DNA of 64,000 nucleotides from the IMG/VR virus record IMGVR_UViG_3300027692_000003; one strand, given 5' to 3'. Source of the stretch: a virus (lineage: Duplodnaviria; Heunggongvirae; Uroviricota; Caudoviricetes). Within the stretch, counting starts at the first letter, position 1, and each line of letters starts with the position of its first letter. The notes below the pieces were generated by a model. That model was not told the DNA's origin, did no database searches, and was given only the letters and a program-made list of their open reading frames with translations. The translations under genes and the position numbers were made by a program. Positions 7,590 to 60,497 of the stretch are shown in pieces.

Positions 7590-8645
7590 GTGACCGGAAT
7601 CGAGATCTGCCGGCCCGTCCCGGGCGGAGACGACGCGCGGCCATCGGCCGAACGGCTCGTGCTCAGCTGGCTGGCCACCAAGAGATCCGCGAACACCCGG
7701 TTCGGCTACGGCGCCGATCTCGGCGTGCGGCTCCTGCGTCCCGGCGCGGCCACCATCGGCGAACCACGCCCCGCCCGCGCACCGGACTGGCTCAGCTACT
7801 GCCGGATGGCCGGCGTCGATCCGCTCGGCGCGGTACTCGAGGAGCATGCCGCGGTCTGGATCCGCGGCATGGAAGCGGCCGGGCTCTCCCCGGCCACCGT
7901 CGCACGCAAGCTGTCAGCAGTGTCGTCCTGGTATGCATGGCTGAAGAGAAAAGGCCACGTCGCTGCCAACCCAGCCGAGGACCTGCCCCGGCCCTACGTC
8001 AACCCGGACATCTCCACGACTCCCGGCCTGACAAGGGATCAGGCACTCGCGATGCTCGCGGCCGCCGATGATGCGCCCTGGCCGCAGTCCGCCCGCAACG
8101 CCGCGCTGACGGCGCTCCTCCTGTTCACGGGGGCGCGGGTCAGCGAGGCCTGCGGCGCCGCCCTGGCCGACCTCGGGATGGACCGCGGCCACCGGGTGCT
8201 GTGGGTCACCCGCAAGGGCACTGAAGGCAGGCAGGCACTCGGGCTCCCGGCACCGGCGACCATGCGGCTGGACGCCTACACTGCCGGACGCGCCGACCTC
8301 GAGCGGCTGCCCGCCATCGCCGGGACCCGGGGACGTGACCGGCCGCTGATCGCCACATCCACCGGGAAGCCGATGCGGCCGGCCGACGTGTGGGAACTCA
8401 TGCGGCGCCTGGGCCGCGCCGCGAAGCTGCCCCCGGAACTGGTCGCGAGGATGGGCTCCCACTCAATGCGGCACAGCTTCGCCACCCTCTACCTTGACGC
8501 CGGCGGGAACCTGCGGGACCTGCAGGACGCCATGGGCCACAAGGACCCGCGGACGACACGCCGGTACGACCGGTCGCGGGGCGCCCTTGACCGCTCGCCG
8601 GGCTACAGGCTCGCTGAGTACCTCTCGGACGGAGACCGGGCATGA
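7590..8645 (+). CDS. int: tyrosine site-specific recombinase / phage integrase (Xer-like)
   Basis: C-terminal catalytic motifs ...GARVSEA..., HSMRHSFATLYLDAGGNLRDLQDAMGHKDPRTTRRYDRS (R..H..R..Y). GTG start. Confidence 0.85.
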   Translation: MTGIEICRPVPGGDDARPSAERLVLSWLATKRSANTRFGYGADLGVRLLRPGAATIGEPRPARAPDWLSYCRMAGVDPLGAVLEEHAAVWIRGMEAAGLSPATVARKLSAVSSWYAWLKRKGHVAANPAEDLPRPYVNPDISTTPGLTRDQALAMLAAADDAPWPQSARNAALTALLLFTGARVSEACGAALADLGMDRGHRVLWVTRKGTEGRQALGLPAPATMRLDAYTAGRADLERLPAIAGTRGRDRPLIATSTGKPMRPADVWELMRRLGRAAKLPPELVARMGSHSMRHSFATLYLDAGGNLRDLQDAMGHKDPRTTRRYDRSRGALDRSPGYRLAEYLSDGDRA

Positions 8646-23278: not shown

Positions 23279-24913
23279 TCAGTCCTGGTCCTGGTCCTGC
23301 TCCGTACTGGCGGGGCCCGGTTTCCCGGTCCAGAGGATCTTCACGGAGTTCCTGACCGGGTTGTGCTTGGTATGTCCCGGGAAGAGCTCGATCTTCTGCG
23401 TGAGGATCCTGATGATGGCCCGCTTCTGGAGGACCGTCAGTGCATCCCACGCTGCCCGGACCCTGGGCTCGGGTCCGCCGAGCGGCATGTTCCGCAGGAC
23501 CGGGGAGATCGCGAGGCGGCGCCCCTTGCTGCGGAGCCGGCCGATGTCGGCCTCGAGGGTTTTCTCCAGCTGCGCGAGGACCCGCAGGCTCGGGGTGCCT
23601 GTCAGGGCATGGCTGTCGGTGGCTTCCCGCAGCCGCTGCTCTTTCTCCTCTGCCTCCGCGAAGTACTGCTCGGCATTGCGGCGCCGGTCCTGGCTGCTGG
23701 CGAGCGCCCGGAGGATGTCGGGGTTGGTGAGCCGGACGATGACTGACTCGGTGACGTACTCGTCAACCAGGGGCATGCGCCGGGCGGCGTGGCCCTTCGG
23801 GCAGTAGTAGTGGAAGAGCCCTGATCCCCTGGCCGTCTCGTTTCCCTGGACAGGCTTCGCGCAGATACCGCACTGGATGATGTAGGAGGCGAGGTAGCGG
23901 ACGTTCCCGTCGCGCCGCTTGCCCCTGGACCGTTCGGCGAGGACGCCGCGGGCCTGGGCTGCGAGGGCCTGGCTGAGGACCGGCGGCCAGATCGCCGTCG
24001 CGACGACCTGGCCGCGGTGCACCCGCTCCCCTGTGTAGGTGGGCCGCTTGATCATCAGGATCAGGGTCTGCCAACGCCAGTGCGTGCCCGCGACGATCTC
24101 CTCGAGCGCGGCTCTCTTCGCCGGGTCGGCCGTGGCGTTCAGCCGGCGCGCCGCCGCGGCTGCCCTGGGTGACAGGATCCCGCGGCGGTCGAGGTCGTCG
24201 CATATCTGCTGGAGCGGCTCGTGCAGGGAGACCCGCCGGGCTGCTTCCCGGATTACCTGGGCTTCTTCCTCGATGATGCGGACCTCGAGGAGTTCTCGGT
24301 CCGGGCCGTACACCCTCTCGTAGGCGTACACGCCGGGGCCGTGGGGACGGCCGGACTGCGCGTTGGCGCGCATGTCCCGCCGGACACGCTTGCTGGTCTC
24401 GTCGGAGGATTTCTCGTTGTGCATGCCTTCCATGAGGAGGGCCTGCCGGTCGGCGATGTTGTCCGGGTCATACAGGCGCTCGGCGCCGCTGTCGTAGAGG
24501 AGTGTTCCCGTGTCGCGGCACAGGTCCAGGAAGTGCGTCCAGGAGGCCATGGTCCGGTCACCGCGGGAGGTCTCGTGCATGACGAGGACCCGGGCGGGCC
24601 GCTGCGGGGAGTCCTCCCTGAGGACGGGGGTGCCTTCGAGTACCTCGATGAGCTCGTCCCAGTCGGGGCGGCGCCGGGTCGCGAAGCGGGACGCCGAGAT
24701 GTCGTCGTCGCTCCATTTCCGCTCGACCGGCCAGCCGTGGTCGGTGCAGGCCCGTACGTTGGCCCGGTCCTGCTGGACGATCGACCCGACTTTGTCCTTG
24801 CCGCGTTTCCTGCTCCTGCTGGCATCGCTGAGGCGGGTGTAGAGCCACGCGGGCAGGGGCCCGCGATCTGGAGGGAGAAGTGCCAGCGCGGGCAGCATGG
24901 TGCTATGGTACAT
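23279..24913 (-). CDS. large serine recombinase (serine integrase)
   Basis: N-terminal resolvase domain (YTRLSDASRSRKRG...SIVQQDRANVRACTDHGW), recombinase domain, and zinc-ribbon Cys cluster (CGICAKP...YYCPKGH). 544 aa. Confidence 0.85.
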   Translation of the reverse strand: MYHSTMLPALALLPPDRGPLPAWLYTRLSDASRSRKRGKDKVGSIVQQDRANVRACTDHGWPVERKWSDDDISASRFATRRRPDWDELIEVLEGTPVLREDSPQRPARVLVMHETSRGDRTMASWTHFLDLCRDTGTLLYDSGAERLYDPDNIADRQALLMEGMHNEKSSDETSKRVRRDMRANAQSGRPHGPGVYAYERVYGPDRELLEVRIIEEEAQVIREAARRVSLHEPLQQICDDLDRRGILSPRAAAAARRLNATADPAKRAALEEIVAGTHWRWQTLILMIKRPTYTGERVHRGQVVATAIWPPVLSQALAAQARGVLAERSRGKRRDGNVRYLASYIIQCGICAKPVQGNETARGSGLFHYYCPKGHAARRMPLVDEYVTESVIVRLTNPDILRALASSQDRRRNAEQYFAEAEEKEQRLREATDSHALTGTPSLRVLAQLEKTLEADIGRLRSKGRRLAISPVLRNMPLGGPEPRVRAAWDALTVLQKRAIIRILTQKIELFPGHTKHNPVRNSVKILWTGKPGPASTEQDQDQD

Positions 24914-25943: not shown

Positions 25944-26552
25944 CACCTGGCTGTTACAGCAGGGCAGGAACCGGCCCAGGAACCTGGCCGGCGGTCATCC
26001 CGTGAGCGTGAGGGGCACGGATGACCGCCGGCCAGCCCGTTTCCCCAGGACATTCACGGAAGGCAAGGACAGGCAGTTGGCTGCTACCGCACTCGAGAGG
26101 CGCCCGGCGGCGGGCGGATGGCGGCAGGCGCGGGCTGGACTGCGCGGCCGTCACGCCGCCGCCCTCCCCGTTCCCCGCGTCGCCGCGGTGACCGGCCGCC
26201 GGTCCGGGCCGCAGGTCAGCGAAGCCTACGCGTCCGCTGCCCTCCTCGCCGCCCTCCGCGGACGCCGGCACCTCGCCGCCGCATCCGTGCAGTGCATGAC
26301 ACCCGAAGACATCGCCGCGTTCCGGACGGCCGCCCGGTACCTCGTCGAGCTGGGCGCCGCCCGGCTCCGGGACCTCGACCCGGCTGCTGTCCCCCCAGGG
26401 TTCACGGCCTGCTGGACCTGCCTCACCACCCCGGCCGGAACCGCGTGCACCAGCCCGTCCTGCCGCGAGGGCGCGTAGCGGATGCGGCCGGACCGGCCCC
26501 TGTCACCGGAGCCCCCCCCCGCTGCCTCCTCGGTAATGAGGAAGGGACCGCT

Positions 26553-27353
26553 GTGGGCAGGGCCATGATCGGCACGATCAGGACCGGTGCACGAAAGTCC
26601 CGGACCCTGGGGGATATCGCGGGCCTCGCCGGCTCCATCGCGGTGGACGGGCAGCGGCACCCGGTCACGGTCAGCCCGGCGGGCCAGCTCATCACCGGTG
26701 CCCGGCGCCTGGCCGCCCGCGAGCACCTCGGCTGGGTCACGGTCCCGGCCCGGGTGATCACGACCTTCCAGGAAGCTGTCGACGCACTGAACGCCGAGCG
26801 TGCCGACGGCCGGCACGCGAAGCCGATGACCGTCGCTGAGATCATCGACCTGGAATCGGTGATGGCCGCGGAACTGGAATGGTGGCCCAGGCAGCAGCCA
26901 GGGAACGGTGACCGGATCCGCGGGAACGAGCGCCGTGCGGCGGTGGCGGCCGCGCTCGGGGTCAGCACCACGGTGTACCGGGACGGGAAGAGGATCGCCG
27001 CTGCTGCCCGCGGCGAGGCGTACGGCAGGACACCGGAACTGGTCACCCCCCGGGCCCGGCAGGCAGCAGCGGACGCGATGGCCGCGATCCGGGCCGGGAT
27101 ACCGGTCCCGGAGGCATACCGGCAGTTCACTGCGGCAGCATGGCCGGCGGCGGCGCCCCGGCCGAACCCGAGGCAGCGGCAGGCCGTCGCATCCGCTGTC
27201 GGCGCCCTCGCCGGGATCGCCGGCGCCCTGGCCAGTACCGGGCCGCTCGACCCGTCGATCAGCCCTGACGTCATCGCCGGCTGGGACACGTCCCTGACTG
27301 AGGCGATGGGACAGCTCCGGACGTTCCGGACGACACTGAGGAAGGCACCCTGA
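26553..27353 (+). CDS. ParB-like N-terminal (ParB/Srx) domain protein (GTG start, GAGGAAGGG RBS)
   Basis: TLGDIAGLAGSIAVDGQRHPVTVSPAGQLITGARRLAAREHLGWVTVPARVI (GxxRxxA motif). The 145-codon upstream extension of the track ORF is Arg/Pro-rich artefact. Confidence 0.6.
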   Translation: MGRAMIGTIRTGARKSRTLGDIAGLAGSIAVDGQRHPVTVSPAGQLITGARRLAAREHLGWVTVPARVITTFQEAVDALNAERADGRHAKPMTVAEIIDLESVMAAELEWWPRQQPGNGDRIRGNERRAAVAAALGVSTTVYRDGKRIAAAARGEAYGRTPELVTPRARQAAADAMAAIRAGIPVPEAYRQFTAAAWPAAAPRPNPRQRQAVASAVGALAGIAGALASTGPLDPSISPDVIAGWDTSLTEAMGQLRTFRTTLRKAP

Positions 27354-28210
27354 TGGCTGGAACGAGAGTTAAGACAGCACCTGAACCCGCCGCCCGGTCG
27401 GGCACCGCCGTGATCGAGATGATCCCGGTACGGGAGCTCGGGACCGACCCGGCGGTCAACACCCGCCCGGTCGACGAGAAATGGGTCACCGACCGTGTCC
27501 CCGTCTACACCCCGGCCGGGGTCGGCACCCTCACGGTGTCCCGCCGCGACGACGGCGAGCTCATCATCCTGGACGGGCAGCACCGCGCCGAGCTGATGCG
27601 GAATGCCGTCGGCATACAGGCGGTCGCCCAGTGCGAGGTGTACCAGGGGCTGGCCCTCAGCCAGGAAGCCGCGATCTTCCGTCTCCTGAACGACAAGCGT
27701 GCCCTGACCCCGCTGCACCGGTTCCTGGCCCTCATCACCGAAGGTGACCCGTCGGCCAGGGATGTCGCGGAGATCGCCGGCCTGTGCGGCTGGACCATCG
27801 CCGACAACACCCGCAACGGCACCCTCCGCTGCATCGGAGCCGTCCAGAAGATCCACCAGCAGGACAAGAACAGGAAGACCGGCGCCGACCCGGTGGCGCT
27901 CGCGCGGACCCTCCGCTGCATCACCGAGACGTGGGGCACCCGCGGTGACTCAGGATCGGCGTTCATCGTCGCCGGGATCGGCGGCGTCTTCGTGCAGTAC
28001 GAGGCGGCGGTCAAGCCTGAGATCATGACCGACCACCTCAAGACCGCGTACACCGACGCGACGGCACTGATCGCCCACGCCAGGGGCCTGGTCCAGTACG
28101 ACCGCGGCTCGATCGCGAACAGCGTCTCCAAGCTGGCGGTCAGGACATACAACAAGCGGCTGCAGTCCCGTAAGATCCCAGGCTGGCGCGGAGACGCCTT
28201 CAACGACTGA
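27353..28210 (+). CDS. DGQHR-motif (DndB-like / ParB-nuclease superfamily) protein, start overlaps the upstream stop (TGATG)
   Basis: IEMIPVRELGTDPAVNTRPVDEKWVTDRVP...LTVSRRDDGELIILDGQHRAELM. Confidence 0.6.
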   Translation: MAGTRVKTAPEPAARSGTAVIEMIPVRELGTDPAVNTRPVDEKWVTDRVPVYTPAGVGTLTVSRRDDGELIILDGQHRAELMRNAVGIQAVAQCEVYQGLALSQEAAIFRLLNDKRALTPLHRFLALITEGDPSARDVAEIAGLCGWTIADNTRNGTLRCIGAVQKIHQQDKNRKTGADPVALARTLRCITETWGTRGDSGSAFIVAGIGGVFVQYEAAVKPEIMTDHLKTAYTDATALIAHARGLVQYDRGSIANSVSKLAVRTYNKRLQSRKIPGWRGDAFND

Positions 28211-28227
28211 GGACAGGACCATCACCA

Positions 28228-28557
28228 GTGACACCCCCCCCCGTTGATCTCGCGGTAATCAGGGAACGGAATTCGGCCTGCATTACTGACCTCGTGACCA
28301 TGACCGTGCTCCGCAAGATGCCGTCCGCAGCCGAGGGACCGGCGATGTGGGAGCGCCTGGTGGAGTCCCTCCGGGATGTCGTGGTGATGGGAGGCGAGAT
28401 AGAGCGGCTGCGGGCGGGCCGGTACAAGATCCGTGACATTCATGCCCCGGCCCCGTCGGGTGACCCGTCGGTGCAGGGGGCGATCTGCACCGGCTGCTCC
28501 CTCCACGGCTCCCTGGTGACATGGCCGTGCGTGACCTGGAACGCTGTAGCGGAGTAA
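28228..28557 (+). CDS. hypothetical protein; GTG start followed by a C9 tract encoding PPP
   Basis: ORF VTPPPVDLAVIRERNSACITDLVTMTVLRKMPSAAEGPAMWERLVESLRDVVVMGGEIERLRAGRYKIRDIH... Confidence 0.4.
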   Translation: MTPPPVDLAVIRERNSACITDLVTMTVLRKMPSAAEGPAMWERLVESLRDVVVMGGEIERLRAGRYKIRDIHAPAPSGDPSVQGAICTGCSLHGSLVTWPCVTWNAVAE

Positions 28558-28687
28558 CCCGGACTCGCGACGCCACGCCGGGATCGGTGCTATGCGTGCA
28601 GGCCGGTTGCCGGTAGCGGCGCCCGGGTTACGCTGTGCGGCATGCTGCTGGTGAGGGACCTGCGTACTGGCGCGGCACCATAGGAAA

Positions 28688-28828
28688 CAGTGCCGTGTCC
28701 GCGGTGCCGGCATGGTCCGGGCACAGCCGCCCCCCCTTTTTCCCTGCGCGAGCCCCGCAGGACGCAGGGGGCAGCGGCACCCCCGTCCCCGTCGTACCGT
28801 GCCGGCACCGGGGACACGGCACATCCCG
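28688..28828 (+). ncRNA. structured RNA candidate: 23-bp near-perfect long-range inverted repeat enclosing ~90 nt with an internal C7T5 tract and a CCCTGCG/CGCAGGG hairpin (Y RNA-like Ro-binding stem candidate)
   Basis: GTGCCGTGTCCGCGGTGCCGGCA (~28691) pairs with TGCCGGCACCGGGGACACGGCAC (~28803). No ORF with coding character. Lies upstream of rsr. Confidence 0.35.
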
Positions 28829-28984
28829 GGCGGGGTCGAAGGCGACTGCTTACCTGCTGGAACCGGGAAGCCTGGGGTGCTGGGCCCGTCCCGGGGGAGC
28901 GCGATCCCCCGGGACGCTCAGCCTCGCAGGGCACCGGTTAGATACCGCAGCCGCCGGCACTGCTTATCCGCCCGGACCCAGGCG

Positions 28985-29115
28985 GCATGACCCTGGCGGG
29001 TCGAAGATGTCCGGTTACCACTGTTAATGGAGAGGTCGCAGGTTCGAGACCTGCCGGCCGGGGCAACCCGGCCGTAGCTCAGCTGGCAGAGCACTTAAAC
29101 CCCGGACGTCACACC
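28985..29115 (+). ncRNA. tRNA-like structured RNA module 1 (YrlA-type Y RNA candidate) with permuted order T-arm / closed acceptor-like hairpin / D-arm
   Basis: CCACTGTTAATGG is an anticodon-arm-like hairpin. GCAGGTTCGAGACCTGC is a T-arm-like hairpin with a TTCGAGA loop. CGGCCGGG-GCAA-CCCGGCCG is an 8-bp stem with a GNRA tetraloop. TAGCTCAGCTGGCAGAGCA is a D-arm. A flanking CCGGTTA/TTAAACCCCGG stem is possible. Confidence 0.4.
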
Positions 29116-29169
29116 CTTTATCCGCCGGGGCCTCGCCGGCCCCGTATTCCCGTCCCGACCTTTGTGTGC

Positions 29170-29280
29170 GGCCCCTGGCGGGTCGAACGAGTCCCGGTTA
29201 TCACAAGTTCGATTCTTGTAGGCCCCACCCCTTTGCGGGGCCTTCGCTCAGTGGCAGAGCATCCGGTCCTCACCTCACTC
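29170..29280 (+). ncRNA. tRNA-like structured RNA module 2 (tandem paralogue of module 1)
   Basis: Shares CCCTGGCGGGTCGAA-N4-TCCCGGTTA with module 1. ACAAGTTCGATTCTTGT is a T-arm. GGCCCC...GGGGCC is a hairpin. TTCGCTCAGTGGCAGAGCA is a D-arm. The TTATCCGCC(N)GG(R)CC motif recurs at ~28964, ~29118 and ~29279. Confidence 0.4.
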
Positions 29281-29347
29281 ATCCGCCAGGACCCCCGTCA
29301 CCGCCCCGTGTCCAGTTCAGGTCGCCCGTACCCCGGAAGGCGCAGCC

Positions 29348-31033
29348 ATGCCCCGTGATCCCCTGGCCTCCGTCACCACCCTCGCCACCCCGCAGAACCA
29401 GCCCGTCCCCGGCCGTGCTGACCAGGTACGGGATAACGCCGGCGGGTACGTGTTCGCGAAAGACCTGTGGACCAGGCTCGAGGATTTCCTGATCCTCGGC
29501 ACGGCCGGCGGGACGCATTATCTCGGTGAGGACAAGCTGACTGCTGACAACGCCGACGTGGTGTTCGAGGCGATCCGGGAGGACGGGCCGCGTGCCGTCA
29601 CCCTCCTCACGGACATCTCAGCATCGAGACCGCCCAGGGCACCGAAGAACCGGGGGTGCCTGTTCACGCTCGCCGCCGCGTCCGCGTCCGGCAACCCCGC
29701 TACGGTGCAGGCCGTCAAGGCGGCGGTACCCCTGGTCGCCCGGACCACCGGTCATCTCGCTGCCCTGTACGGGTACCGGAAGCAGTTCAAGGCGGCGGCG
29801 ACCCCCCGCGGGTACTCGTCGGTGGAGGGGCGGGCGTGGCGGTCCGCGCTTGCCGGCTGGTTCCTGACCGGGGACCCGGACTCGGTGGCGTGGCGGGCAT
29901 GCAAGGCGAAGTCGCGGAAGACTCCCGCCGGGGAGGACATGGCGCTGCGGGACATCATCCGCCTCGCCCACCCCAGGCCGGCCACTGCGGAGCAGGCGGC
30001 GCTGCTGGGGTGGCTGACCGGGAAGACCAGCGACGAGCAGGCCGCCGCGCTGCTGCCCGCCGTCGACGCGTACCTGACCGCCCGCGCCGTCACCACCGAG
30101 ACTGAGGCGGTCCGGGTGGTGACGGACCGGCGGGTCCCGTGGGAGTACCTGCCGTCGAAGTTCCAGGGATCGGCGGCAGTGTGGGAAGCACTCGCACCGG
30201 TCGCGGGGGTAACGGCGCTGCTGCGGAACCTGGCCCGCATGACCAGGATCGGCACCATCGCCCCGTTCGCCGCCGCCAATGTGGAGGTGGCACGGCGGCT
30301 CACCGACCCGCAGGTGCTGAGGCAGGGCCGGATACACCCGATGGACGTGTTCCTCGCCCTGCGGGTCTACCAGTCGGGCCGGTCCCAGCCGAACCCTGAC
30401 GAGCCGCCCAGCACGTGGCAGCCCGTCGCGGACATCTCCGACGCACTGGAGGAGGCGTACAGCCTGTCGTTCGGGCATACCGAGCCATCCGGGCGGCGGC
30501 TCCTGGTCGCCGTGGACTCGTCCGGGTCCATGACCGGGAAGGTGTACCGGAACGGCCCGGTAGTGCACCCGGTCACGTTCGGCGGATCGCCGATCGGCAC
30601 CCCGTATGAGGTGGCGTGCGCGGTCGCAGTCCAGATGAAGCGGATCGAGGGCGGCAACGTCCATGTCATCGACGTCGACGGCGCCGCGCACCCGTCGAAG
30701 GTGACCGCCCGGACGACCCTGCGGGAAATCAGCTCGTGGAAACCCAGCGGGGACCGCACGGACCTGTCCCTCCCGTTCATGTACGCGGCCCAGTATGACC
30801 TGAGGGTCGACGGGTTCCTGATCCTGTCCGACATGGAGACCTGGGCCGGGGGGCAGCACCCTTTCCAGGCCCTGTCCGCTTACCGGGCCCGGTACAACCC
30901 GCACGCGAGGGTGGTCGCCGCGGCGATCACTCCGGCGGGTCACGCCATCGGCGAGCCCGGCGACACGGGTGTGCTGAACATTGCCGGGATGGACTCCTCG
31001 CTGCCGCAGGTCATCGCCGGGTTCCTCCGGTGA
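29348..31033 (+). CDS. rsr: Ro60 orthologue (TROVE domain + C-terminal vWA with MIDAS)
   Basis: GGYVFAKDLWTRLEDFLILGTAGGTHYLGEDKLTADNADVVFEAIREDGPRAVTLL aligns with human Ro60 [52 protein letters not shown]. C-terminal LLVAVDSSGSMTG is a MIDAS DxSxS motif. GGAAGG RBS. Confidence 0.85.
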   Translation: MPRDPLASVTTLATPQNQPVPGRADQVRDNAGGYVFAKDLWTRLEDFLILGTAGGTHYLGEDKLTADNADVVFEAIREDGPRAVTLLTDISASRPPRAPKNRGCLFTLAAASASGNPATVQAVKAAVPLVARTTGHLAALYGYRKQFKAAATPRGYSSVEGRAWRSALAGWFLTGDPDSVAWRACKAKSRKTPAGEDMALRDIIRLAHPRPATAEQAALLGWLTGKTSDEQAAALLPAVDAYLTARAVTTETEAVRVVTDRRVPWEYLPSKFQGSAAVWEALAPVAGVTALLRNLARMTRIGTIAPFAAANVEVARRLTDPQVLRQGRIHPMDVFLALRVYQSGRSQPNPDEPPSTWQPVADISDALEEAYSLSFGHTEPSGRRLLVAVDSSGSMTGKVYRNGPVVHPVTFGGSPIGTPYEVACAVAVQMKRIEGGNVHVIDVDGAAHPSKVTARTTLREISSWKPSGDRTDLSLPFMYAAQYDLRVDGFLILSDMETWAGGQHPFQALSAYRARYNPHARVVAAAITPAGHAIGEPGDTGVLNIAGMDSSLPQVIAGFLR

Positions 31034-31478: not shown

Positions 31479-31559
31479 CCCGGGACACACCAGGGCACAG
31501 CCGCCGGCCCGGCTGCCGTGCCAGTCACGCCCACCCGGAAAAGGGGAAGAGGGAACTCG

Positions 31560-32525
31560 ATGGGATGGTTTATCTTCGCGGTCCTGCTCGCCATCATCGG
31601 CGCGCTCGCGCTGGCTGGCGGCGGCCTGGCGAAAGGCGAGTATAAGCGCGCCTACGGCGGGAAGCCGGAGCCGTGGGACTGGTCACTGCCAGTCCGGGCC
31701 GCCGGCGGCTTCGTGCTTCTGCTCTCGTTCGGCCTGTTCGCGGTGTCGGGCCTGAAGTCGGTCCCGGTGAAGAACATCGGCGTCCCGCAGGTATTCGGTG
31801 CGGTGACCGGCACCGTGCAGGGGCCCGGGATCCACGAGACGTGGACGCCGTGGCTGCACCTGACCGACGTGGACGAGACCGTCCAGACCACGACGTTCGA
31901 GGACTCCGGTAACGACACCGGGTCATCATGCAACGGCGGCCTCGCAGTCCGGATCGGCGGCCAGCAGACCGCGTGTGCCGACGTGACGATCCAGTGGCAG
32001 ATCCTGCCGGCAGCCGCGGACTCCCTGTTCAGCGACTACGCCAACCAGGGCAACCTGATGACCGAGATCACCAATGCCGTGGTGCTGCGCGAGTTCAAGA
32101 CCGTCGTCAACCAGGTCGTGGGTGACTACAACCCGATCACCGACGTGGAGTCCGTCGCGAATACGAACTCGGCGACCAGCGTGTTCTCCACGTTCGCGCC
32201 GACAATCCAGGCGGACATGACCCGTGACATCGGGTCCCGGATCAGGATCATCAGTGTTCAGCTGCCGCTGATGCATTACGACGCCACGGTGGAAGCCGCA
32301 CTGCAGTCGATCGCGAAGGAGAACGCGAGCTACGCCGTCGCTGTCGAGGAAGTGAAAGTCGACCAGGAGCAGGCCCTGGCCTACCGGCAGCTCGGCACAC
32401 CGTCCGAGAGCGCCCTGATCAGCGAGTGCCTCTCCGACGTGAAAGCAGCAGGCAGCAGCTGGCCGGTCAACGTCCAGTGCTTCCCGGGTGCCAGCTCAGG
32501 TGTGGCACTCTCCCAGGGAGGGTGA
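31560..32525 (+). CDS. membrane-anchored SPFH/band-7-like protein
   Basis: N-terminal TM MGWFIFAVLLAIIGALALAGGG, then a prohibitin/stomatin-like region (IQWQILPAAADSLFSDYANQGNLMTEITNAVVLREFKTVV...AALQSIAKENASYAVAVEEVKVDQEQALAYRQLG). Confidence 0.5.
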   Translation: MGWFIFAVLLAIIGALALAGGGLAKGEYKRAYGGKPEPWDWSLPVRAAGGFVLLLSFGLFAVSGLKSVPVKNIGVPQVFGAVTGTVQGPGIHETWTPWLHLTDVDETVQTTTFEDSGNDTGSSCNGGLAVRIGGQQTACADVTIQWQILPAAADSLFSDYANQGNLMTEITNAVVLREFKTVVNQVVGDYNPITDVESVANTNSATSVFSTFAPTIQADMTRDIGSRIRIISVQLPLMHYDATVEAALQSIAKENASYAVAVEEVKVDQEQALAYRQLGTPSESALISECLSDVKAAGSSWPVNVQCFPGASSGVALSQGG

Positions 32526-37968: not shown

Positions 37969-38664
37969 TCACCGGGGAGAACCCGGCTTCGGGGTGACTG
38001 GGGCAGGGACGGTCAGGGCGGCGAGCTCGGCGGATGACCCGTGGTACGCGGAGCAGTCACATGAGCCGATTCCCGGTACCGGGTACGACGCCGTGAACTG
38101 CCACATCTGGTGCGGGAATGCGGGCTCGTCCTGCTGGTACGCGGCGACCCACTGCGGCTGCAGGCGCTTCGCCTCGGCGAAGTCCAGGCCCGAGTACAGC
38201 CACGGGCCCCCGGCCGGGGTCCGGGCCAGCTGCGGGTACGCGGCGAGGATCTCTGCCCGCCACGCCTCCCACACTGCGGCCTGGTCCCCGTCGCCTGTCT
38301 CCAGGTCGGCGATCGGGAGCTCACCGGGACGCAGCGGCCCCAGCAGGCTGGCGAGGGCACGGGCCTGGCCGGCGGGGTCCTGGCCGGGGACGAGGAACTG
38401 GTAGATGCCGAGGAAGACCGCGCCGCCGGCGTGGAGGTCCCCGCGGCGGGCACCGCCGTACCAGGCGCCGTCGTCCATGTCCTCGCCGTACATCGCCCGG
38501 ATGATCACTGCCTTGGACCAGGCGAGATAGACCGGGTCATCGACGTCGGGCTGGAACCCGGACACGTCCGCGAGCAGGATGCTGCGGGTACTGTCCAGTG
38601 CCGGGATGCCGCGTGGTTCCCCGCCGGCCCGCAGGACGGCCGGTCTTGCGTCAGTGACTGGCAT
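37969..38664 (-). CDS. GH25-family muramidase (endolysin)
   Basis: ILLADVSGFQPDVDD...AVIIRAMYG...GIYQFLV matches the GH25 DVSxxQ / FxIIKATEG / YHF pattern. Confidence 0.6.
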   Translation of the reverse strand: MPVTDARPAVLRAGGEPRGIPALDSTRSILLADVSGFQPDVDDPVYLAWSKAVIIRAMYGEDMDDGAWYGGARRGDLHAGGAVFLGIYQFLVPGQDPAGQARALASLLGPLRPGELPIADLETGDGDQAAVWEAWRAEILAAYPQLARTPAGGPWLYSGLDFAEAKRLQPQWVAAYQQDEPAFPHQMWQFTASYPVPGIGSCDCSAYHGSSAELAALTVPAPVTPKPGSPR

Positions 38665-51041: not shown

Positions 51042-54000
51042 CTAGTACTGCCGGCCGGGCATCTGGTAACCCGTCCCGAGGTTGTTCGCGGCCCTGTCCA
51101 GGGCGTGAGCCTGGACGACGCTGCTCAGGACCTGGCCGTCCACGACGAGATGGGTCGTGGTCTGGTGGACCACCGGGGCCGCGCCGCCGCCGCCGCCGCT
51201 GCCGCCGCCGGACGATCCCGCCGCGGCGGGGTGCGGGACAGCGCTCGCGGGATGCTGGTCCGCGGCGGCGGGGACTGCGCTGGAGATACCGTCCGCTGAG
51301 GAGCCGTCACCGCCCTTGGTCCTCTTCTTCGCGGCGTCCTTCTCCGCTGTCTCGATCGCGGCGAGGATGGCCGAGGTGAGGTCACCGGTCACGGAGGCGA
51401 TGCCTGCCGCCATCTCCTGGCCTATCTCGGCACCGCCCTTGAATGCGGCGGCTGCAGCACCGCCGCCTAGCGCCGCGTCCAGGTCGTGGGTGATGTCCTT
51501 CGACAGGGAGCCGATCGACGAGTTGACCGCCCCGAGCTGGCTTTTCAGCCCGGCTGCGAGGCCCTTGGTGATGTCGGCGGCCGGCTCGTAGACGGCGTTG
51601 CTCGCTGTGACCCCGAGCGCTTTCGCTGCCGTGTTCATCTGCGACTGGAGGCTGTTGAGCTGCTGGATCGCGCCCTTCCCGCCGCCGAGGATGCTCTCGG
51701 CGATCGGGTCGCCTGTCGCCGCGCCGGACTGCGCGAGCTGGTCCAGGAAGGCGGTGTTGAGGCCCTCTTTCTTCAGCTTGGTCAGGTCGGCAGTGAACTG
51801 CTTGGTCTGCGTGACCTGGGCCTGCATCCCGGAGATCAGGTCGCTGACCTGCGGCGCGGCTACCGCCGCTGGTGCGTTGCCGGACTCCAGCGCCTGAGCG
51901 TTCGCCGCGACGCTGATGATGCTGGCGCCCTGGTTCGTCGCTGCCGTGATGCTCTGCGCGTAGGACTGCGCCTGCGTGATCTGGTTTTCCAGGGTCTGCC
52001 GCTGCTGGGCGAGGGCCTGCAGCTTCGCGCCGTCAGCCTTGAGGTAGGCGACCATGCCCGAGTCCTCGGACTTGCTGATCTTGCCTTTCTTCAGCGCCTT
52101 CGCGATATCGGCCTCGAACGTCGAGATGGTCCCGGCGATCGTGGAGTCGCTGAACGGCGCGGCGATCCCCTCCGCGAGATCCTTCGCGGTGGTGATCGCG
52201 GACTGGCCGCCCTGGAGGCCGGCGAGCAGCGACGCGGCGGCGGTCTTGGACAGCCCCTCTGCCGCCTTCTTCACCGTGCCCTCGCCGGCGGTAATGCCCT
52301 CGGCGAAACCGCCGTCGAACTCGTCCTGCCCGATCGCCATCGTGACCCGGCTAGGCGAATGCGCGTCGAGGGTCGTGTGCATCGCCTCGGCCCCGGCAGC
52401 CGCCACGGCGCTCGCTGCCGCCGTGACCGCACCGACTCCGCCCGCGATACCGCCCGCCAGTCCGGCGTCCATGGACGCGCCGATGCCGGCGGTGCCTGCC
52501 GCACCGGACTTCATCGCGCCGAGGACACTGGCCATGGCGGTCGCGGCCTTGGCCTTCGCCGCAGACAGGGCACTCAGGTCGGGTGCGGGGACCTTGACCG
52601 GGGCCATCGCGGACCCGGTGCCGAGCGTGCCAAGGGCGTGCTTGATGGTCTCGCTGATGGAGTTCGCGGAGGCCGGGTCGACCTCGGGCTTGACCTTGAC
52701 CTGCACGGTCTGGTCAGCGGCGGGCAGCTTCATGCCGGTCTTGAGCATGTCCCCGGCCCAGCCGCCAGTCACGGGTGCCACCGCCGGCGCAGCCTCCGGC
52801 GCGGGAGCGGCAGGCTTGCCGCCGCCGAACCCGAAGAACGACGCGATCGAATCGACGGCCGAGGCCGCCTGGTGCCGGGAGGAATCGAGACCGGATGTCA
52901 CCCAGTCGGCATTGCCCTTGAAGCTATTGGCGAGGGCGTCACCCTGGCTTGCCATCTGGTGCCGGGCCGAGTCGAAGCTGCCGGTCTGGTAGTCCCCGGC
53001 GCGCGTGAAGGCCCCGACGGTCTCGCTGACCGCGTTGCTGACGTGGGTTCCGACAGCGGAGCCGAACTTGGAGGTCGCGAACCAGGAGTCGAGGCCGCCG
53101 AAGATGCTGGGCATCATCCCGGCTGCGGCCGGGTCGTTCTGGAGGTCCTTGTTCGCGGTCCCGGCCTTGGTCCCGGCGGGGGAAAGCTGATCCCCGAGGC
53201 CCTTGATCAGGAGGCCGAGGCCGACCCCCGCGGCGAGAGGGTTGACTGAGGCAGCCAGGTCGGTGCCGCCGCGCAGGCCAGCGGCGGCGAGGACCCCGCC
53301 GCCGCCCTTTTCTGCGTCCCCTTCGATACCGGACTCAGCGTCCGAAGCGACAGGTCCGGCGGGGATGGTCCCGCCCGGTTCCCTGCTGGACGGCAGCGTG
53401 CCAGGGAGTGTCTTGTCAGTGTTGCCGAGATCGCCGCCTTCGGCGGCGGTGGAGAGTTTCCCTGCTGCGCCTTCAAGGCTTCCGGCGGCGGCGCTGAGGC
53501 TCGACCCGGCACTTTCCAGGCCCGCCGCACCGGCCGTGCTGGAGCCCTGCCCGATCCCGGCGAGTTTGTCGGCGCCGGGGATGCCGAGGGTCTCCCCGAC
53601 TTTCCCGGCAGAGCTGAGTACCGTGCTGATCGGCGAGGCGACCTTGGACAGGATGGCCGGCAGCGCGAGGAGTCCCGCGCCGATCATGACGTCCTTGGTC
53701 GCGGTGGGATGTGCTGCGGCGAAGCCGAGGACGTCGGAGACACCGCCGAGCACCTTGGTTACAGAGGGGAGGAGTGCCTGCCCGGCCTCGGTCGCTACCG
53801 CCTCAAGGCTGTACTCGGTGGCCTTGAGCTTGTAGTTAAGGGTGTCCTGGACCTGGGACCAGCCCTTGATGTTGTTCCCGGTGTGCTGGACGGACTGGCC
53901 GACCGCGTCCACGTCGCTCTTGAACGTGCCCAGGTGCGAGCCGCCGGTCATCAGGGCGAACTGCTCGCCCATCTTCCCGCCGAGCGCCTCGGACAGGGCA

Positions 54001-58928: not shown

Positions 58929-59350
58929 GCGGTGAGCAGGACCCTGCCGCGTGGCTGCGACAGCAGATCGAGGCCGACGCCGGCTGGACGGCCCCCCCGC
59001 CGCAACGGCTGCAGCAGGCGCTCAGCAGGGGCGAGCTGAGCATCAATGACGTGCGCTGGGTTCCGTTCTCATCCGCGCTGATGGCCGCTGACCGTGAGGC
59101 GAAGCTGGCCATCCTGGGCGAGCTGGCCGCCGCGAAGGCGAGACGTGATGCCGAGCGGGACGACTATTCCCGGTGGATTGCCGGCGAGACCCGGGGGGAG
59201 CGGCCCCGGTTCCCCGGACCTGCGCCTGAGGTCATCGCGGGACTGGAACGTGCGGTCTGCCTGCTCGCCACGGGGTACCGGCATCGTGAGGGGTACGCGG
59301 AACACTGGGGCACCACGGACATCAGTAACTCTGGTTCCAGTAGTTACTGA
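58925..59350 (+). CDS. hypothetical protein (GTG start overlapping the upstream stop)
   Basis: ORF VSGEQDPAAWLRQQIEADAGWTAPPPQRLQQALSRGELSINDVRWVPFSSALMAADREAKLAILGELAAAKARRDAERDDYSRWIAG... Confidence 0.4.
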   Translation: MSGEQDPAAWLRQQIEADAGWTAPPPQRLQQALSRGELSINDVRWVPFSSALMAADREAKLAILGELAAAKARRDAERDDYSRWIAGETRGERPRFPGPAPEVIAGLERAVCLLATGYRHREGYAEHWGTTDISNSGSSSY

Positions 59351-60497
59351 GGATCACGCTGCTGACCCCGTACTCGCTGGAGTCCGTCAGGTTCGCGATG
59401 CCGGACAGCCTGTACTCGGCGGTGACGTAATCCTCTTCGAGGCTCACGCTGCCCTGCGTCCACCCGGACCGGGAGAGGGTGACTGTGATCGAGCAGCCGC
59501 CTTGCAGGGCCGGCTGGGCGAGCGTCCACACCGCCGGCTCCTGGATCGCCTCCCGGTACAGGTTCAGGTCCGCCGCCGTGTCGAAGATGGCCTTGTATGA
59601 CCCTGCGGTCCGCAGCGGCCCGGCGCCGATGAACAGGGGGGCCTGCTGGCCGTTGCAGCACGGGAAGATGCCGAGCTCGCGTGTCAGGGGCAGGTCAAGG
59701 GAGATGCCCCGGGCCGAGGTGCCGCCTGCGGTGGTGATGCCCCATCCCCATCCGGCGGGAGGCTGGGCGGCGGTCTGCTCCTCCGCGGACGTCGCGACGG
59801 CGACGGGCGGCATGCCGTTCCAGGTGGAGACGAGCCGGGCGTACCCGCTCTGCTGGACCTGGAGGCGGACGCTGCCGAGGATGCAGCCGGGCCAGCCGAG
59901 CTGATCCACCCCGTCATCCGTAGTCAGCGAGTACGACGGCCAGATCGTCGGAGGGCCGTAGACACGGTCCTGCTGGAACAGGTGGGTGGCCTGGGACTGC
60001 GCGGGGTCGCCTTCGCCGTGGCCGTACAGCAGGGCAGTCGTGAGCGGGACGAGGTAAGGCCCGGTCCCGGCCGGGGTTCCGGCCAGCGCGTACTCCAGCA
60101 TGGCGCCTGTGCCGAGCATCAGGACCGAACCGGCGGGAGGCGCCGCGGCGAGGCTGACAGCGTTCATCCCCGCTGATGCCTGCGCCGCGAACGTCGTCAC
60201 GGTACCGGCCGTGAACTGGTCAGTACCGATCATCGCCCGGTACAGCCACCCGGCCCAGTCCGGGTAAGCCTGGGTTGTTATCGTCCAGTCTGACCAGTAC
60301 GGGCCCTGCTGGATGTCCTGCGTATCAGTGTCGGTGCCCATCAGGGAACGGTCGGTGAGCTGGGTGATCGCGGACCGGTACCGGGTGCCGGTGCTGAACG
60401 GGACAGTGAACGAGGGGGCAACGTAGACGGCGTCCGAGGATTCGGCGGCGATGCCGAGCCTGGCGGTGGCGGACAGGACCGAGTACGTCACCGGCAC
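59322..60497 (-). CDS. phage structural protein (391 aa)
   Basis: ORF MPVTYSVLSATARLGIAAESSDAVYVAPSFTVPFSTGTRYRSAITQLTDRSLMGTDTDTQDIQQGPYWSDWTITTQAY... Confidence 0.5.
   Translation of the reverse strand: MPVTYSVLSATARLGIAAESSDAVYVAPSFTVPFSTGTRYRSAITQLTDRSLMGTDTDTQDIQQGPYWSDWTITTQAYPDWAGWLYRAMIGTDQFTAGTVTTFAAQASAGMNAVSLAAAPPAGSVLMLGTGAMLEYALAGTPAGTGPYLVPLTTALLYGHGEGDPAQSQATHLFQQDRVYGPPTIWPSYSLTTDDGVDQLGWPGCILGSVRLQVQQSGYARLVSTWNGMPPVAVATSAEEQTAAQPPAGWGWGITTAGGTSARGISLDLPLTRELGIFPCCNGQQAPLFIGAGPLRTAGSYKAIFDTAADLNLYREAIQEPAVWTLAQPALQGGCSITVTLSRSGWTQGSVSLEEDYVTAEYRLSGIANLTDSSEYGVSSVILSNYWNQSY

What the first reader, a model, noticed from the sequence alone, without database searches (positions are those of the whole stretch)
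28964..29300. Two-and-a-half tandem ~155-bp units, each a permuted tRNA-like module (T-arm, closed acceptor-like hairpin, D-arm), directly upstream of a Ro60 gene: YrlA-type Y RNA genes
Unit 1 has an anticodon-arm-like hairpin (CCACTGTTAATGG, GTT in the loop) and a T-arm with TTCGAGA loop. It also has an 8-bp GC stem capped by a GCAA tetraloop and a canonical D-arm (TAGCTCAGCTGGCAGAGCA). Unit 2 repeats the T-arm (ACAAGTTCGATTCTTGT), hairpin and D-arm (GCTCAGTGGCAGAGC). The order is not that of a tRNA gene, so tRNAscan would probably miss it. The order does match the published architecture of bacterial and mycobacteriophage YrlA RNAs, which mimic tRNA and bind Ro60. Tandem duplication of the module is notable.
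Basis: partly seen in the sequence, partly recalled or inferred. Interest (0 to 1): 0.7.

Follow-up and report, generated by a model that had tools for sequence, protein, structure and literature searches.

The report
Three tandem Y RNA genes before Ro60
Just upstream of a phage-borne Ro60 gene lie three related genes for small tRNA-mimicking "Y RNAs", the known RNA partners of Ro60. This is a fresh example of an already described arrangement, not a new kind of element.

Summary
There are three complete homologous units, not two and a half. They lie at 28826-28975 (unit 0), 28992-29129 (unit 1) and 29174-29290 (unit 2), spaced 166 and 182 nt apart.

Each unit is closed by a stem joining its 5' and 3' ends. 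The stem carries the published Ro60-binding motif GNCGAAN0-1G. Units 1 and 2 contain a T arm, a closed acceptor-like hairpin and a D arm, in that order. This is the YrlA architecture. Unit 0 keeps the stems and a D-arm remnant but has lost the T loop.

A covariance model built only from relatives finds exactly these three sites in the 64 kb window (112.5, 62.8 and 40.3 bits). Across 42 related units, 25 of 36 base pairs show compensatory changes.

Rfam's YrlA model hits units 1 and 2 only below its threshold. ARAGORN finds no tRNA.

The gene at 29348-31033 is Ro60, and the neighbourhood is prophage-like. Arrays of one to four such units are the rule in related actinomycete and prophage loci.

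This is a new member of a known kind, of modest interest.

The parts
28795..28800 (+). Candidate -10 promoter hexamer TACCGT, 31 nt before unit 0 (inferred)
   Evidence: A TANNNT hexamer lies 29-37 nt upstream of the first unit in 14 of the 23 loci examined, including the window. The generic sigma-70 scan found nothing, so this rests on conservation only.
28826..28975 (+). Unit 0: a divergent Y RNA gene that is probably rod-like rather than tRNA-like. Closing stem CCGGGCGG 28826-28833 pairs with CCGCCCGG 28968-28975. Motif GUCGAAG is at 28835-28841. Upper stem is 28842-28849 with 28947-28954. A GC hairpin is at 28888-28915. A D-arm remnant GCTCAGCCTCGCAGGGC is at 28916-28932. There is no T loop.
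   Evidence: Model R2, which is independent of the window, scores it 40.3 bits, E 9e-9, full length. R1 scores it 46.6 bits, with alignment shown. It is 99/155 identical to unit 1, z 7.6. Folding gives -92.1 kcal/mol, z -3.8.
28992..29129 (+). Unit 1: full YrlA-type Y RNA gene. Closing stem 28992-28999 pairs with 29122-29129. GUCGAAG is at 29000-29006. Upper stem GUCCGG 29009-29014 pairs with CCGGAC 29102-29107. The V/anticodon-like hairpin is at 29018-29030, the T arm at 29038-29054, the acceptor-like hairpin at 29055-29074 and the D arm at 29077-29092.
   Evidence: Rfam YrlA 40.4 bits, E 2e-7. R2 112.5 bits, E 1.4e-27. The MFE fold reproduces all arms, z -4.0. It is 82% identical to a unit in Mycobacterium abscessus prophages next to a Ro-like gene.
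29127..29143 (+). Small hairpin GGGGCC-UCGCC-GGCCCC. It overlaps the last 3 nt of unit 1's closing stem. Its role is unknown (processing or pause site?).
   Evidence: It is conserved in the closest relative L021 as AGGGCC-TCGCC-GGCCCT, which is one compensatory G-C to A-U change. It has no U tract, and no terminator was called.
29174..29290 (+). Unit 2: shorter YrlA-type Y RNA gene without the V/anticodon-like hairpin. Closing stem 29174-29181 pairs with 29283-29290. GUCGAACG is at 29182-29189. The T arm is at 29203-29219, the acceptor-like hairpin at 29220-29243 and the D arm at 29246-29260.
   Evidence: Rfam YrlA 28 bits, E 8.5e-4. R2 62.8 bits, E 1.3e-14. The fold has z -2.7. The same unit type, with an identical T arm, occurs in L021 and L031 with compensatory changes in the acceptor and D stems.
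29335..29340 (+). Shine-Dalgarno-like GGAAGG, 7 nt before the Ro60 start codon
   Evidence: Read directly from the sequence.
29348..31033 (+). Ro60 (Rsr) gene, 561 aa, the presumed protein partner of the three RNAs
   Evidence: Pfam TROVE E 8e-18 and vWA_Ro60 E 1e-30. PDB 2NVO, D. radiodurans Rsr, E 8e-66. PHROG 850 RNA-binding protein, E 1e-52.

Best explanation
The 0.5 kb before the Ro60 gene encodes three paralogous YrlA-family Y RNAs on the Ro60 strand.

Shown:
- Each unit can fold so that its 5' and 3' ends form a helix (CGGGU/AUCCG) next to an internal loop. The loop carries GUCGAA(N)G, the published Ro60-binding signature.
- The distal part of units 1 and 2 is a permuted tRNA mimic. A T arm stacks directly onto a closed acceptor-like stem. 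Two nucleotities (U8-like) follow, then a D arm with the GG that would pair with the T loop.
- Unit 0 is homologous but has lost the T loop, and it folds into a long GC-rich rod.

Inferred:
- The array is transcribed from one promoter about 30 nt before unit 0, together with the Ro60 gene.
- It is cut into separate RNAs of about 150, 138 and 117 nt.
- Each RNA binds the outer surface of the Ro60 ring through the conserved helix. Each uses its distal module to resist nucleases and to tether Ro60 to partners such as PNPase, as shown for D. radiodurans, Salmonella and Thermus phage phiLo.
- Because the locus sits in a prophage-like region, the phage probably uses the RNP to redirect host RNA decay or quality control.
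For: Ro60 identity is supported.

Anatomy:
- The arms are read directly from the sequence.
- MFE folds reproduce them, with z of -2.7 to -4.0.

Family signal:
- Rfam YrlA hits units 1 and 2 full length, E 2e-7 and 8.5e-4.
- Model R2 contains no window sequence. It finds exactly three hits in 64 kb: 112.5, 62.8 and 40.3 bits.

Covariation over 42 units from 24 loci:
- 25 of 36 pairs have compensatory changes.
- 94.1% of cells are paired, against 36-45% when partners are slid.
- The covariation score is 0.569, against at most 0.148.
- 0 of 500 shuffles reach the observed values.

Sequence conservation and close relatives:
- GGGUCGAA and AUCCG are invariant in all 42 units.
- The closest relative L021 (Ro60 83% identical) keeps units 1 and 2. 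Its acceptor hairpin has a different sequence but still pairs, and its T stem has compensatory changes.

Non-coding status and strand:
- The source's own gene calls leave 28558-29347 empty.
- All hits are on the Ro60 strand.

Literature:
- The YrlA definition, M. smegmatis YrlA and YrlB processed from one precursor upstream of rsr, and RNase P cleavage come from PMC4201824.
- Phage Ro60 with two upstream Y-RNA-like genes that bind Ro60 and PNPase comes from PMC12135203.

Prophage context: serine recombinase, two ParB-like genes, a borderline Glyco_hydro_25 match (27.2 bits against a cut-off of 27) that may be a lysin, tape measure and tail tube.
Against: - No expression, processing or binding data exist. 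The sequence comes from a metagenome scaffold.
- Both Rfam scores are below the curated gathering score of 69 bits, and the gathering-mode scan reports nothing.
- Unit 0 lacks the T loop, U8 and the D-loop GG, so it is not a tRNA mimic and could be a decaying copy.
- No relative closer than 70% covers unit 0, so its conservation could not be tested.
- No promoter or terminator was called by the generic scan. Transcript boundaries are therefore inferred.
- The pairs G-U and U-A next to the CGAA loop never vary, so they have no covariation support.
Confidence: 0.88

Rival explanations
1. The units are not separate stable RNAs. They are a cis-acting structured leader of the Ro60 mRNA, for example a platform that Ro60 binds in cis to control its own translation or stability.
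For: - The units lie on the same strand as Ro60, 57 nt from its start codon.
- No internal promoter or terminator was detected.
- Only one conserved -10-like hexamer exists, before the first unit.
- Many relatives carry an extra mimic of the Y-RNA helix right at the ribosome-binding site. This suggests Ro60 does touch this leader.
Against: - In M. smegmatis the homologous upstream units accumulate as discrete Ro60-bound RNAs cut from a precursor (PMC4201824). Co-transcription and stable RNAs are therefore not exclusive.
- In Salmonella the YrlA gene lies 3' of rsr, according to the bioRxiv paper 10.1101/312249.
- The tRNA-like module is conserved in detail, which a simple leader would not need.
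Confidence: 0.08
2. Unit 0 is a decaying pseudogene copy of a YrlA unit, not a functional third Y RNA.
For: - The T loop is lost and the D-loop GG is changed to CG. There is no U at the position before the D-arm remnant that U8 occupies in units 1 and 2.
- It has the lowest model score of the three, 40.3 bits.
- The window lacks the short 67-78 nt non-tRNA unit that opens the array in most relatives.
Against: - The Ro60-binding part is intact: an 8-bp closing stem, GUCGAAG and the upper stem.
- The interior has been remodelled into a very stable rod (-92 kcal/mol, z -3.8) rather than randomised.
- Every characterised species has one non-tRNA-like, long-hairpin Y RNA (YrlB or Yrn2) beside the tRNA-like one (PMC4201824).
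- It sits where the first transcribed unit would be.
Confidence: 0.3
3. These are real tRNA genes, or the remains of a dimeric tRNA gene, that the reader mis-parsed.
For: - The Rfam tRNA model gives a weak hit at 28992-29062: 18.3 bits against a gathering score of 29.
- ARAGORN, like GenBank, calls the 5' half of the homologous unit in prophage prophiGD43A-5 tRNA-Thr(tgt).
- 18 of 42 units carry a hairpin with an anticodon-loop-like YU-NNN-AA loop.
- A published model derives YrlA from dimeric tRNA transcripts, cited in 10.1101/312249.
Against: - ARAGORN finds no tRNA anywhere in the window.
- The arm order is T, acceptor, D.
- The acceptor-like stem is closed by a loop.
- The ends pair into a long helix with the Ro60 motif.
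- The 'anticodon' triplet varies freely, with 11 different triplets.
- Common ancestry with tRNA is likely, but present identity as a tRNA is not.
Confidence: 0.02

Closest known systems
Mycobacterium smegmatis YrlA and YrlB (Chen et al. 2014, PMC4201824)
   Same: - The host is an actinobacterium.
- At least two Y RNAs lie upstream of rsr on the same strand. In M. smegmatis they are processed from one precursor.
- YrlA is about 147 nt, with the GNCGAAN0-1G stem, T arm, acceptor-like stem and D arm.
- The published YrlA-5' probe implies UUACCACUUCUAAUGG, the same hairpin as in unit 1 and its relatives (CCACUGUUAAUGG).
   Different: - The window has three units, not two.
- The non-tRNA-like member (unit 0) is a full-length derivative of a tRNA-like unit rather than a short hairpin.
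- The acceptor-like stem is 8 bp with a tetraloop, against 7 bp in M. smegmatis, so RNase P cleavage is uncertain.
- The locus is in a prophage-like region.
- No experimental data exist here.
Rfam RF02553 YrlA and Salmonella Typhimurium YrlA (tRNA-like domain crystal structure, bioRxiv 10.1101/312249)
   Same: The order of elements is the same, and the full-length alignment to the model covers the closing stems, T arm, acceptor-like stem and D arm.
   Different: - Scores of 40.4 and 28 bits are below the gathering score of 69 bits.
- None of the units in 19 related loci passes the threshold either.
- In Salmonella the RNAs lie 3' of rsr in an rtcBA operon under RtcR control. I saw no RNA ligase domain among the window's neighbouring ORFs that I scanned, which was not every ORF.
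- Salmonella YrlA lacks the V/anticodon-like loop that unit 1 has.
Thermus phage phiLo Yrl1 and Yrl2 with phage Ro60 (PMC12135203)
   Same: Both are phage-encoded Ro60 genes with Y-RNA-like genes directly upstream, each with a 5'/3' stem and a CGAA-containing bulge. In phiLo, binding to Ro60 and to host PNPase was shown.
   Different: - The phage lineage and host phylum are different.
- The paper's text contains no mention of 'tRNA-like'.
- phiLo has two units rather than three.
Mycobacteriophage and Mycobacterium abscessus prophage Y-RNA-like units next to Ro-like genes
   Same: Unit 1 is 82% identical over about 100 nt to a unit in prophiT37-1 and prophiGD43A-5. prophiGD43A-5 carries four tandem model hits upstream of its Ro-like gene.
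   Different: - In the prophage units the position of GGGUCGAAG is occupied by GAGCAGGAC or GAACAGGAC.
- The best tblastn matches to the window's Ro60 among phage records, which include mycobacteriophages, are about 35% identical.
- The first prophage unit is annotated as tRNA-Thr in GenBank.
Deinococcus radiodurans Yrn1 and Yrn2
   Same: Several Y RNAs are encoded upstream of rsr and made as a polycistronic precursor. One is tRNA-like and one is a long hairpin.
   Different: This is a separate lineage. The order of T and D arms is the reverse, and the Ro60-binding helix is metazoan-like.

Membership tests
YrlA-type bacterial Y RNA (Chen et al. 2014; Rfam RF02553) | Encoded within 4 kb of a Ro60/TROVE gene, on the same strand | tested here: met
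   The units end 57 to 373 nt before the Ro60 start at 29348, all on the + strand.
YrlA-type bacterial Y RNA (Chen et al. 2014; Rfam RF02553) | The 5' and 3' ends pair into a stem whose 5' strand carries GNCGAAN0-1G | tested here: met
   GUCGAAG is present in units 0 and 1, and GUCGAACG in unit 2. The 8-bp closing stems are all paired. The closing helix covaries in relatives, with 5 of 10 pairs showing changes on both sides.
YrlA-type bacterial Y RNA (Chen et al. 2014; Rfam RF02553) | T arm with a UUCGA-type loop placed 5' of the D arm | tested here: met
   Units 1 and 2 meet this, with loops UUCGAGA and UUCGAUU. Four of 5 T-stem pairs covary. Unit 0 does not meet it, because its T loop is absent.
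YrlA-type bacterial Y RNA (Chen et al. 2014; Rfam RF02553) | Closed acceptor-like stem between the T and D arms, abutting the T stem | tested here: met
   All three units have it. In relatives all 8 pairs of this helix show compensatory changes. The L021 version has an unrelated sequence but the same pairing.
YrlA-type bacterial Y RNA (Chen et al. 2014; Rfam RF02553) | D arm with the conserved A14 and G18-G19 equivalents, two nucleotides after the acceptor-like stem | tested here: met
   Units 1 and 2 have GCUC-AGCUGGCA-GAGC and GCUC-AGUGGCA-GAGC. Unit 0 has only a remnant, GCUC-AGCCUCGCA-GGGC, without the GG.
YrlA-type bacterial Y RNA (Chen et al. 2014; Rfam RF02553) | Score at or above Rfam's gathering threshold (69 bits) | tested here: not met
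   Unit 1 scores 40.4 bits and unit 2 scores 28.0 bits. Unit 0 gets no hit. The same threshold also misses every unit in 19 related loci. I read this as a model-coverage limit, not as evidence against homology.
YrlA-type bacterial Y RNA (Chen et al. 2014; Rfam RF02553) | Accumulates as a discrete RNA bound by Ro60, modified by TruB/Dus or cut by RNase P | not testable with these tools
   The sequence is a metagenome scaffold and no expression data were available.
tRNA gene | A cloverleaf in the order acceptor, D, anticodon, T, acceptor, recognised by tRNA finders | tested here: not met
   ARAGORN finds 0 genes in the window. The Rfam tRNA model scores 18.3 bits against a gathering score of 29.
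Non-tRNA-like, long-hairpin Y RNA (YrlB / Yrn2 type) - considered for unit 0 | [quoted passage not shown] | tested here: inconclusive
   Unit 0 has the stem and motif and folds as a long rod. However, it is 150 nt, derives from a tRNA-like unit, and differs from the 67-78 nt short units of relatives.

The most novel reading that the evidence does not exclude
In this Ro60 clade the protein may repress its own translation. It would do so by binding a permuted copy of the Y-RNA helix, (C)AY-AUCCGCC-loop-GGCGGGU-CGAA. This copy sits 14-30 nt before the start codon in 16-20 of the 27 loci examined (26 relatives and the window), next to the Shine-Dalgarno sequence. Y RNAs would act as competitors that set the amount of free Ro60. 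The phage lineage in the window and L021 has lost this element and carries an extra Y RNA (unit 2) in its place. That would uncouple phage Ro60 synthesis from the feedback. A related reading concerns unit 0. It may show how rod-like YrlB-type Y RNAs arise from tRNA-like ones by collapse of the T and D arms.
Probability: 0.2. Interest if true: 0.6.

Novelty: new member of a known kind. Interest (0 to 1): 0.33.

Why it matters
The locus adds a three-gene Y RNA array from an uncultured, prophage-like actinobacterial element to a family with few characterised members.

Practical points:
- Rfam's YrlA threshold misses this whole actinomycete and phage clade.
- tRNA finders can mislabel the 5' half of such units as tRNA-Thr.
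- A clade-specific model such as R2 would correct annotation.

Biological points:
- The array offers natural variants for asking what the tRNA-like module does. Unit 1 is a full tRNA mimic with an anticodon-loop-like hairpin. Unit 2 is a mimic without that hairpin. Unit 0 has a collapsed mimic.
- The phage context fits the recent proposal that phage Ro60-Y RNA particles co-opt host PNPase.

None of this changes the current picture of Y RNAs.

Tried and rejected
- ARAGORN on the window found no tRNA.
- Rfam in gathering mode found nothing in the window. It found no YrlA in 19 related loci.
- Tandem Repeats Finder found no array, because the units are too diverged.
- The generic promoter and terminator scan of 28100-29400 found nothing.
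- An IMG/VR scan with the Ro60 protein found no relatives.
- The metagenome scan found only relatives at 70% identity or less. The one closer relative, L021 at 83%, has a contig that begins 25 nt before unit 1. Conservation of unit 0 therefore could not be tested.
- The contig for P0003 had no DNA file.
- I tested whether the GGCGGGUCGAA before Ro60 in relatives pairs with a partner beyond the Ro60 stop codon, which would place the mRNA inside a giant Y stem. No AUCCGCC lies downstream, so I rejected this.
- I searched for a short YrlB-like unit in the window with model R1. There is none besides the three hits.
- A tail tube protein search against 50,697 phage records found no match, so the phage lineage could not be named.
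- The reviews by Sim and Wolin (2018), Sim et al. (2020) and Boccitto and Wolin (2019) are not held in the library. The supplementary tables of Chen et al. 2014 are not held either. I could not check how many multi-unit arrays were already tabulated.
- A naive hairpin finder for the V arm picked inconsistent stems. I replaced it with an explicit YU-NNN-AA test.
Full report
**Observation.**
- In unit 1 the CCACTGTTAATGG hairpin is at 29018-29030 and the T arm at 29038-29054. The 8-bp GC stem with its GCAA loop is at 29055-29074 and the D arm at 29077-29092.
- In unit 2 the T arm is at 29203-29219, the hairpin at 29220-29243 and the D arm at 29246-29260.
- The ORF at 29348-31033 is a Ro60 protein. 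Pfam gives TROVE and vWA_Ro60. PHROG 850 matches. PDB 2NVO, D. radiodurans Rsr, matches at E 8e-66.

Each unit is closed by a stem between its own ends.
- Unit 1: CCUGGCGG at 28992-28999 pairs with CCGCCGGG at 29122-29129.
- Unit 2: CCUGGCGG at 29174-29181 pairs with CCGCCAGG at 29283-29290.
Its 5' strand, CCGGGCGG, lies at 28826-28833.

Start-to-start spacing is 166 and 182 nt. The apparent 155-nt period is the spacing of the 3' strands of units 0 and 1. Tandem Repeats Finder reports nothing. The units are only 56-64% identical, which is still 5 to 10 standard deviations above shuffled controls.

**Is it more than chance?**
- Rfam at gathering thresholds reports nothing in the window.
- In a local E-value search the YrlA model RF02553 aligns full length to 29008-29111 (40.4 bits, E 2e-7) and to 29175-29292 (28 bits, E 8.5e-4). 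The gathering score is 69 bits.
- ARAGORN finds no tRNA in the 64 kb. The Rfam tRNA model gives only 18.3 bits on the 5' half of unit 1.
- All three units fold as proposed. Free energies are -92.1, -72.3 and -48.6 kcal/mol, with z of -3.8, -4.0 and -2.7.

**Relatives.**
The Ro60 protein was used to collect loci.
- 17 Streptosporangiaceae genomes have Ro60 at 57-61% identity.
- A Nonomuraea chromosome and two Mycobacterium abscessus prophages came from DNA similarity.
- Almost every locus has one to four units with the same anatomy directly upstream of Ro60, on its strand.

A MAFFT alignment of 42 tRNA-like units (A1) has invariant GGGUCGAA and AUCCG. RNAalifold predicts 36 pairs in five helices: closing stem, upper stem, T stem, acceptor-like stem and D stem. 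Twenty-five of these pairs show changes on both sides.

Counting on that structure gives the following.
- 94.1% of cells are paired, against 36-45% when the 3' partners are slid by 1-3 columns.
- The covariation score is 0.569, against at most 0.148.
- None of 500 shuffles reaches any observed measure.

The closest relative, L021 (Ro60 83% identical), has both unit 1 and unit 2. Its acceptor hairpin has a different sequence but still pairs, and its T stem has compensatory changes. L031 (72% identical) has the unit-2 type with the identical T arm and compensatory changes in the acceptor and D stems.

**Independent test of the window.**
Model R2 was built from 38 units, excluding every window and L021 sequence. 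On the whole window it gives exactly three hits.
- 28992-29129: 112.5 bits, E 1.4e-27
- 29174-29290: 62.8 bits, E 1.3e-14
- 28826-28975: 40.3 bits, E 9e-9
- The next best hit has E 0.2.

The alignment of unit 0 to the family model shows what it keeps. It has the closing stem, GUCGAAG, the upper stem, the acceptor-like hairpin and a D-arm remnant. The remnant, GCUCAGCCUCGCAGGGC, compares with GCUCAGCCUGGCAGAGC in L023. The T arm is gone and the D-loop GG is lost. In the MFE fold the remnant pairs with upstream sequence, extending the hairpin into a long rod.

Unit 0 is therefore a homologous third unit that is no longer a tRNA mimic. Whether it is functional could not be tested, because no relative closer than 70% covers it.

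**What it is.**
The features match the published definition of YrlA RNAs (PMC4201824). That definition requires:
- proximity to Ro60 on the same strand
- a terminal stem with GNCGAAN0-1G
- a T arm, an acceptor-like stem and a D arm in that order

That paper already lists a Streptosporangium roseum YrlA and mycobacteriophage YrlAs. It reports 355 candidates in 276 genomes, so some genomes have several. It also shows that M. smegmatis YrlA and YrlB are both encoded upstream of rsr and cut from one precursor.

The M. smegmatis YrlA-5' probe implies the sequence UUACCACUUCUAAUGG. This is the same hairpin as in unit 1 and its relatives.

A Thermus phage Ro60 with two upstream Y-RNA-like genes has been characterised biochemically (PMC12135203).

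**Context.**
The exact Ro60 protein occurs on a 165 kb metagenome scaffold. Its gene calls leave 28558-29347 empty. The window carries several phage-like genes:
- a serine recombinase at 23279-24913 (-)
- two ParB-like genes at 26118-28210 (+)
- a borderline Glyco_hydro_25 match at 37969-38664 (-), possibly a lysin (27.2 bits against a cut-off of 27)
- a tape measure gene at 51042-55865 (-)
- a tail tube gene at 59322-60497 (-)

The locus therefore lies in a phage or prophage. The tail tube has no match among 50,697 phage records. The phage Ro60 proteins in that collection are only about 35% identical, whereas chromosomal Streptosporangiaceae Ro60 proteins are about 60% identical.

**Mechanism.**
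Shown here:
- homology and conserved structure of the RNAs
- presence of the published Ro60-binding signature
- adjacency to Ro60

Inferred:
- Transcription starts from a promoter whose -10 is TACCGT at 28795-28800. A TANNNT hexamer lies 29-37 nt before the first unit in 14 of the 23 loci examined.
- The array is co-transcribed with Ro60, since no terminator was detected.
- The precursor is processed into three RNAs.
- Each RNA binds Ro60 through the CGGGU/AUCCG helix and the CGAA loop.
- The tRNA-like module protects the RNA and tethers partners such as PNPase, by analogy with D. radiodurans, Salmonella and phage phiLo.
- Unit 1's acceptor-like stem (7 bp plus one closing pair and a tetraloop) abuts the T stem exactly as in tRNA, so RNase P cleavage as in M. 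smegmatis is possible but untested.

**Details worth recording.**
In 18 of 42 units it is a 3-4 bp stem closing a 7-nt loop YU-NNN-AA. There are four stem types and 11 different central triplets. Shuffled sequence gives 0.2 such units. This is an anticodon-loop signature without a conserved anticodon. It fits the published idea that YrlA arose from a dimeric tRNA transcript (10.1101/312249).
- The same feature explains why ARAGORN and GenBank call the 5' half of a prophage unit tRNA-Thr.
- Unit types are shuffled between loci. L031 has a short unit, a B-type unit, the unit-2 type and the unit-1 type, in that order. The window has a degenerate B-type, the unit-1 type and the unit-2 type.

**Verdict.**
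These are three YrlA-family Y RNA genes, one of them degenerate, upstream of a prophage Ro60 gene. The locus is a new member of a known kind, and interest is modest. The most novel lead lies in the relatives, not in the window. It is a permuted copy of the Y-RNA helix at the Ro60 ribosome-binding site, which could mediate autoregulation. The window's lineage lacks it.

Noticed in passing
Relatives, e.g. L028:2950-3000, L003:2955-3000, L030:1636-1686; absent from the window (29291-29347): In 16 of the 27 loci examined (26 relatives and the window; about 20 with near-matches) the Ro60 start codon is preceded at 14-30 nt by (C)AY-AUCCGCC-[short loop]-GGCGGGU-CGAA. Both conserved strands of the Y-RNA closing helix are joined at the end that is open in a Y RNA, and the Shine-Dalgarno sequence follows. 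No partner strand lies downstream of Ro60. This could be a Ro60 autoregulatory site. The window and L021 keep only a remnant (CAGGTCGCCCG, 29314-29324).
   Followed up: partly
L025:17-2923 (metagenome contig Ga0596951_0001508): A Ro60 gene 70% identical to the window's is preceded by an uninterrupted array of 25 ARAGORN-called tRNA genes instead of Y RNAs. Only the GGCGGGUCGAA half of the leader motif is present. Two dynamin-like genes follow.
   Followed up: partly
L003, L004, L009, L010, L015, L017: spacers between units (e.g. L003:2454-2487, 2625-2657, 2796-2815): Spacers flanking each unit in Streptosporangiaceae arrays are mutually complementary (GGTCAGGTCTGG with CCAGACCTGATC; CGTCAGTCCTGCCGG with CCGGCAGGGCTGACG). 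In L026 a perfect 12-nt complement flanks the single unit. These extend the closing stems and look like double-strand processing stems. The window's spacers do not show this.
   Followed up: no
L001:3980-4700 (Mycobacterium phage prophiGD43A-5, MW584167.1): Four tandem family-model hits, plus what I read by eye as a short fifth unit, lie upstream of the Ro-like gene. The position of GGGUCGAAG is occupied by GAGCAGGAC or GAACAGGAC, suggesting a co-evolved Ro-binding motif. The first unit's 5' half is annotated tRNA-Thr(tgt) in GenBank and called so by ARAGORN, which is probably a mis-annotation.
   Followed up: partly
window 29127-29143: Hairpin GGGGCC-UCGCC-GGCCCC overlaps the 3' end of unit 1. 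It is conserved in L021 with one compensatory pair change. A similar CCGCC...GGCGG hairpin overlaps the 3' end of unit 0 (28969-28985). No U tract follows either, and their role is unknown.
   Followed up: no
L003, L010, L012, L015 (about 50 nt upstream of the first unit): A conserved palindrome, GTGTGACGCGTCAC (GTGGCGCGCCAC in L002 and L005), sits about 20 nt upstream of the TANNNT hexamer. It may be an operator for a regulator of the Y RNA-Ro60 operon. It is not present in the window.
   Followed up: no
window 23279-64000: The region is prophage-like. It has a serine recombinase (23279-24913, -), two ParB-like genes (26118-28210, +), an SPFH/Band_7 gene (31518-32525, +), a borderline Glyco_hydro_25 match that may be a lysin (37969-38664, -), a tape measure gene (51042-55865, -) and a tail tube gene (59322-60497, -). 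The tail tube has no match in the phage collection. A tyrosine integrase lies at 7590-8645.
   Followed up: partly
Alignment A1, region between the upper stem and the T arm (window 29018-29030): 18 of 42 units have a 3-4 bp stem with a 7-nt loop YU-NNN-AA. U33- and A37/A38-like positions are conserved and the central triplet is free, with 11 variants. This is an anticodon-loop signature inside a Y RNA.
   Followed up: yes
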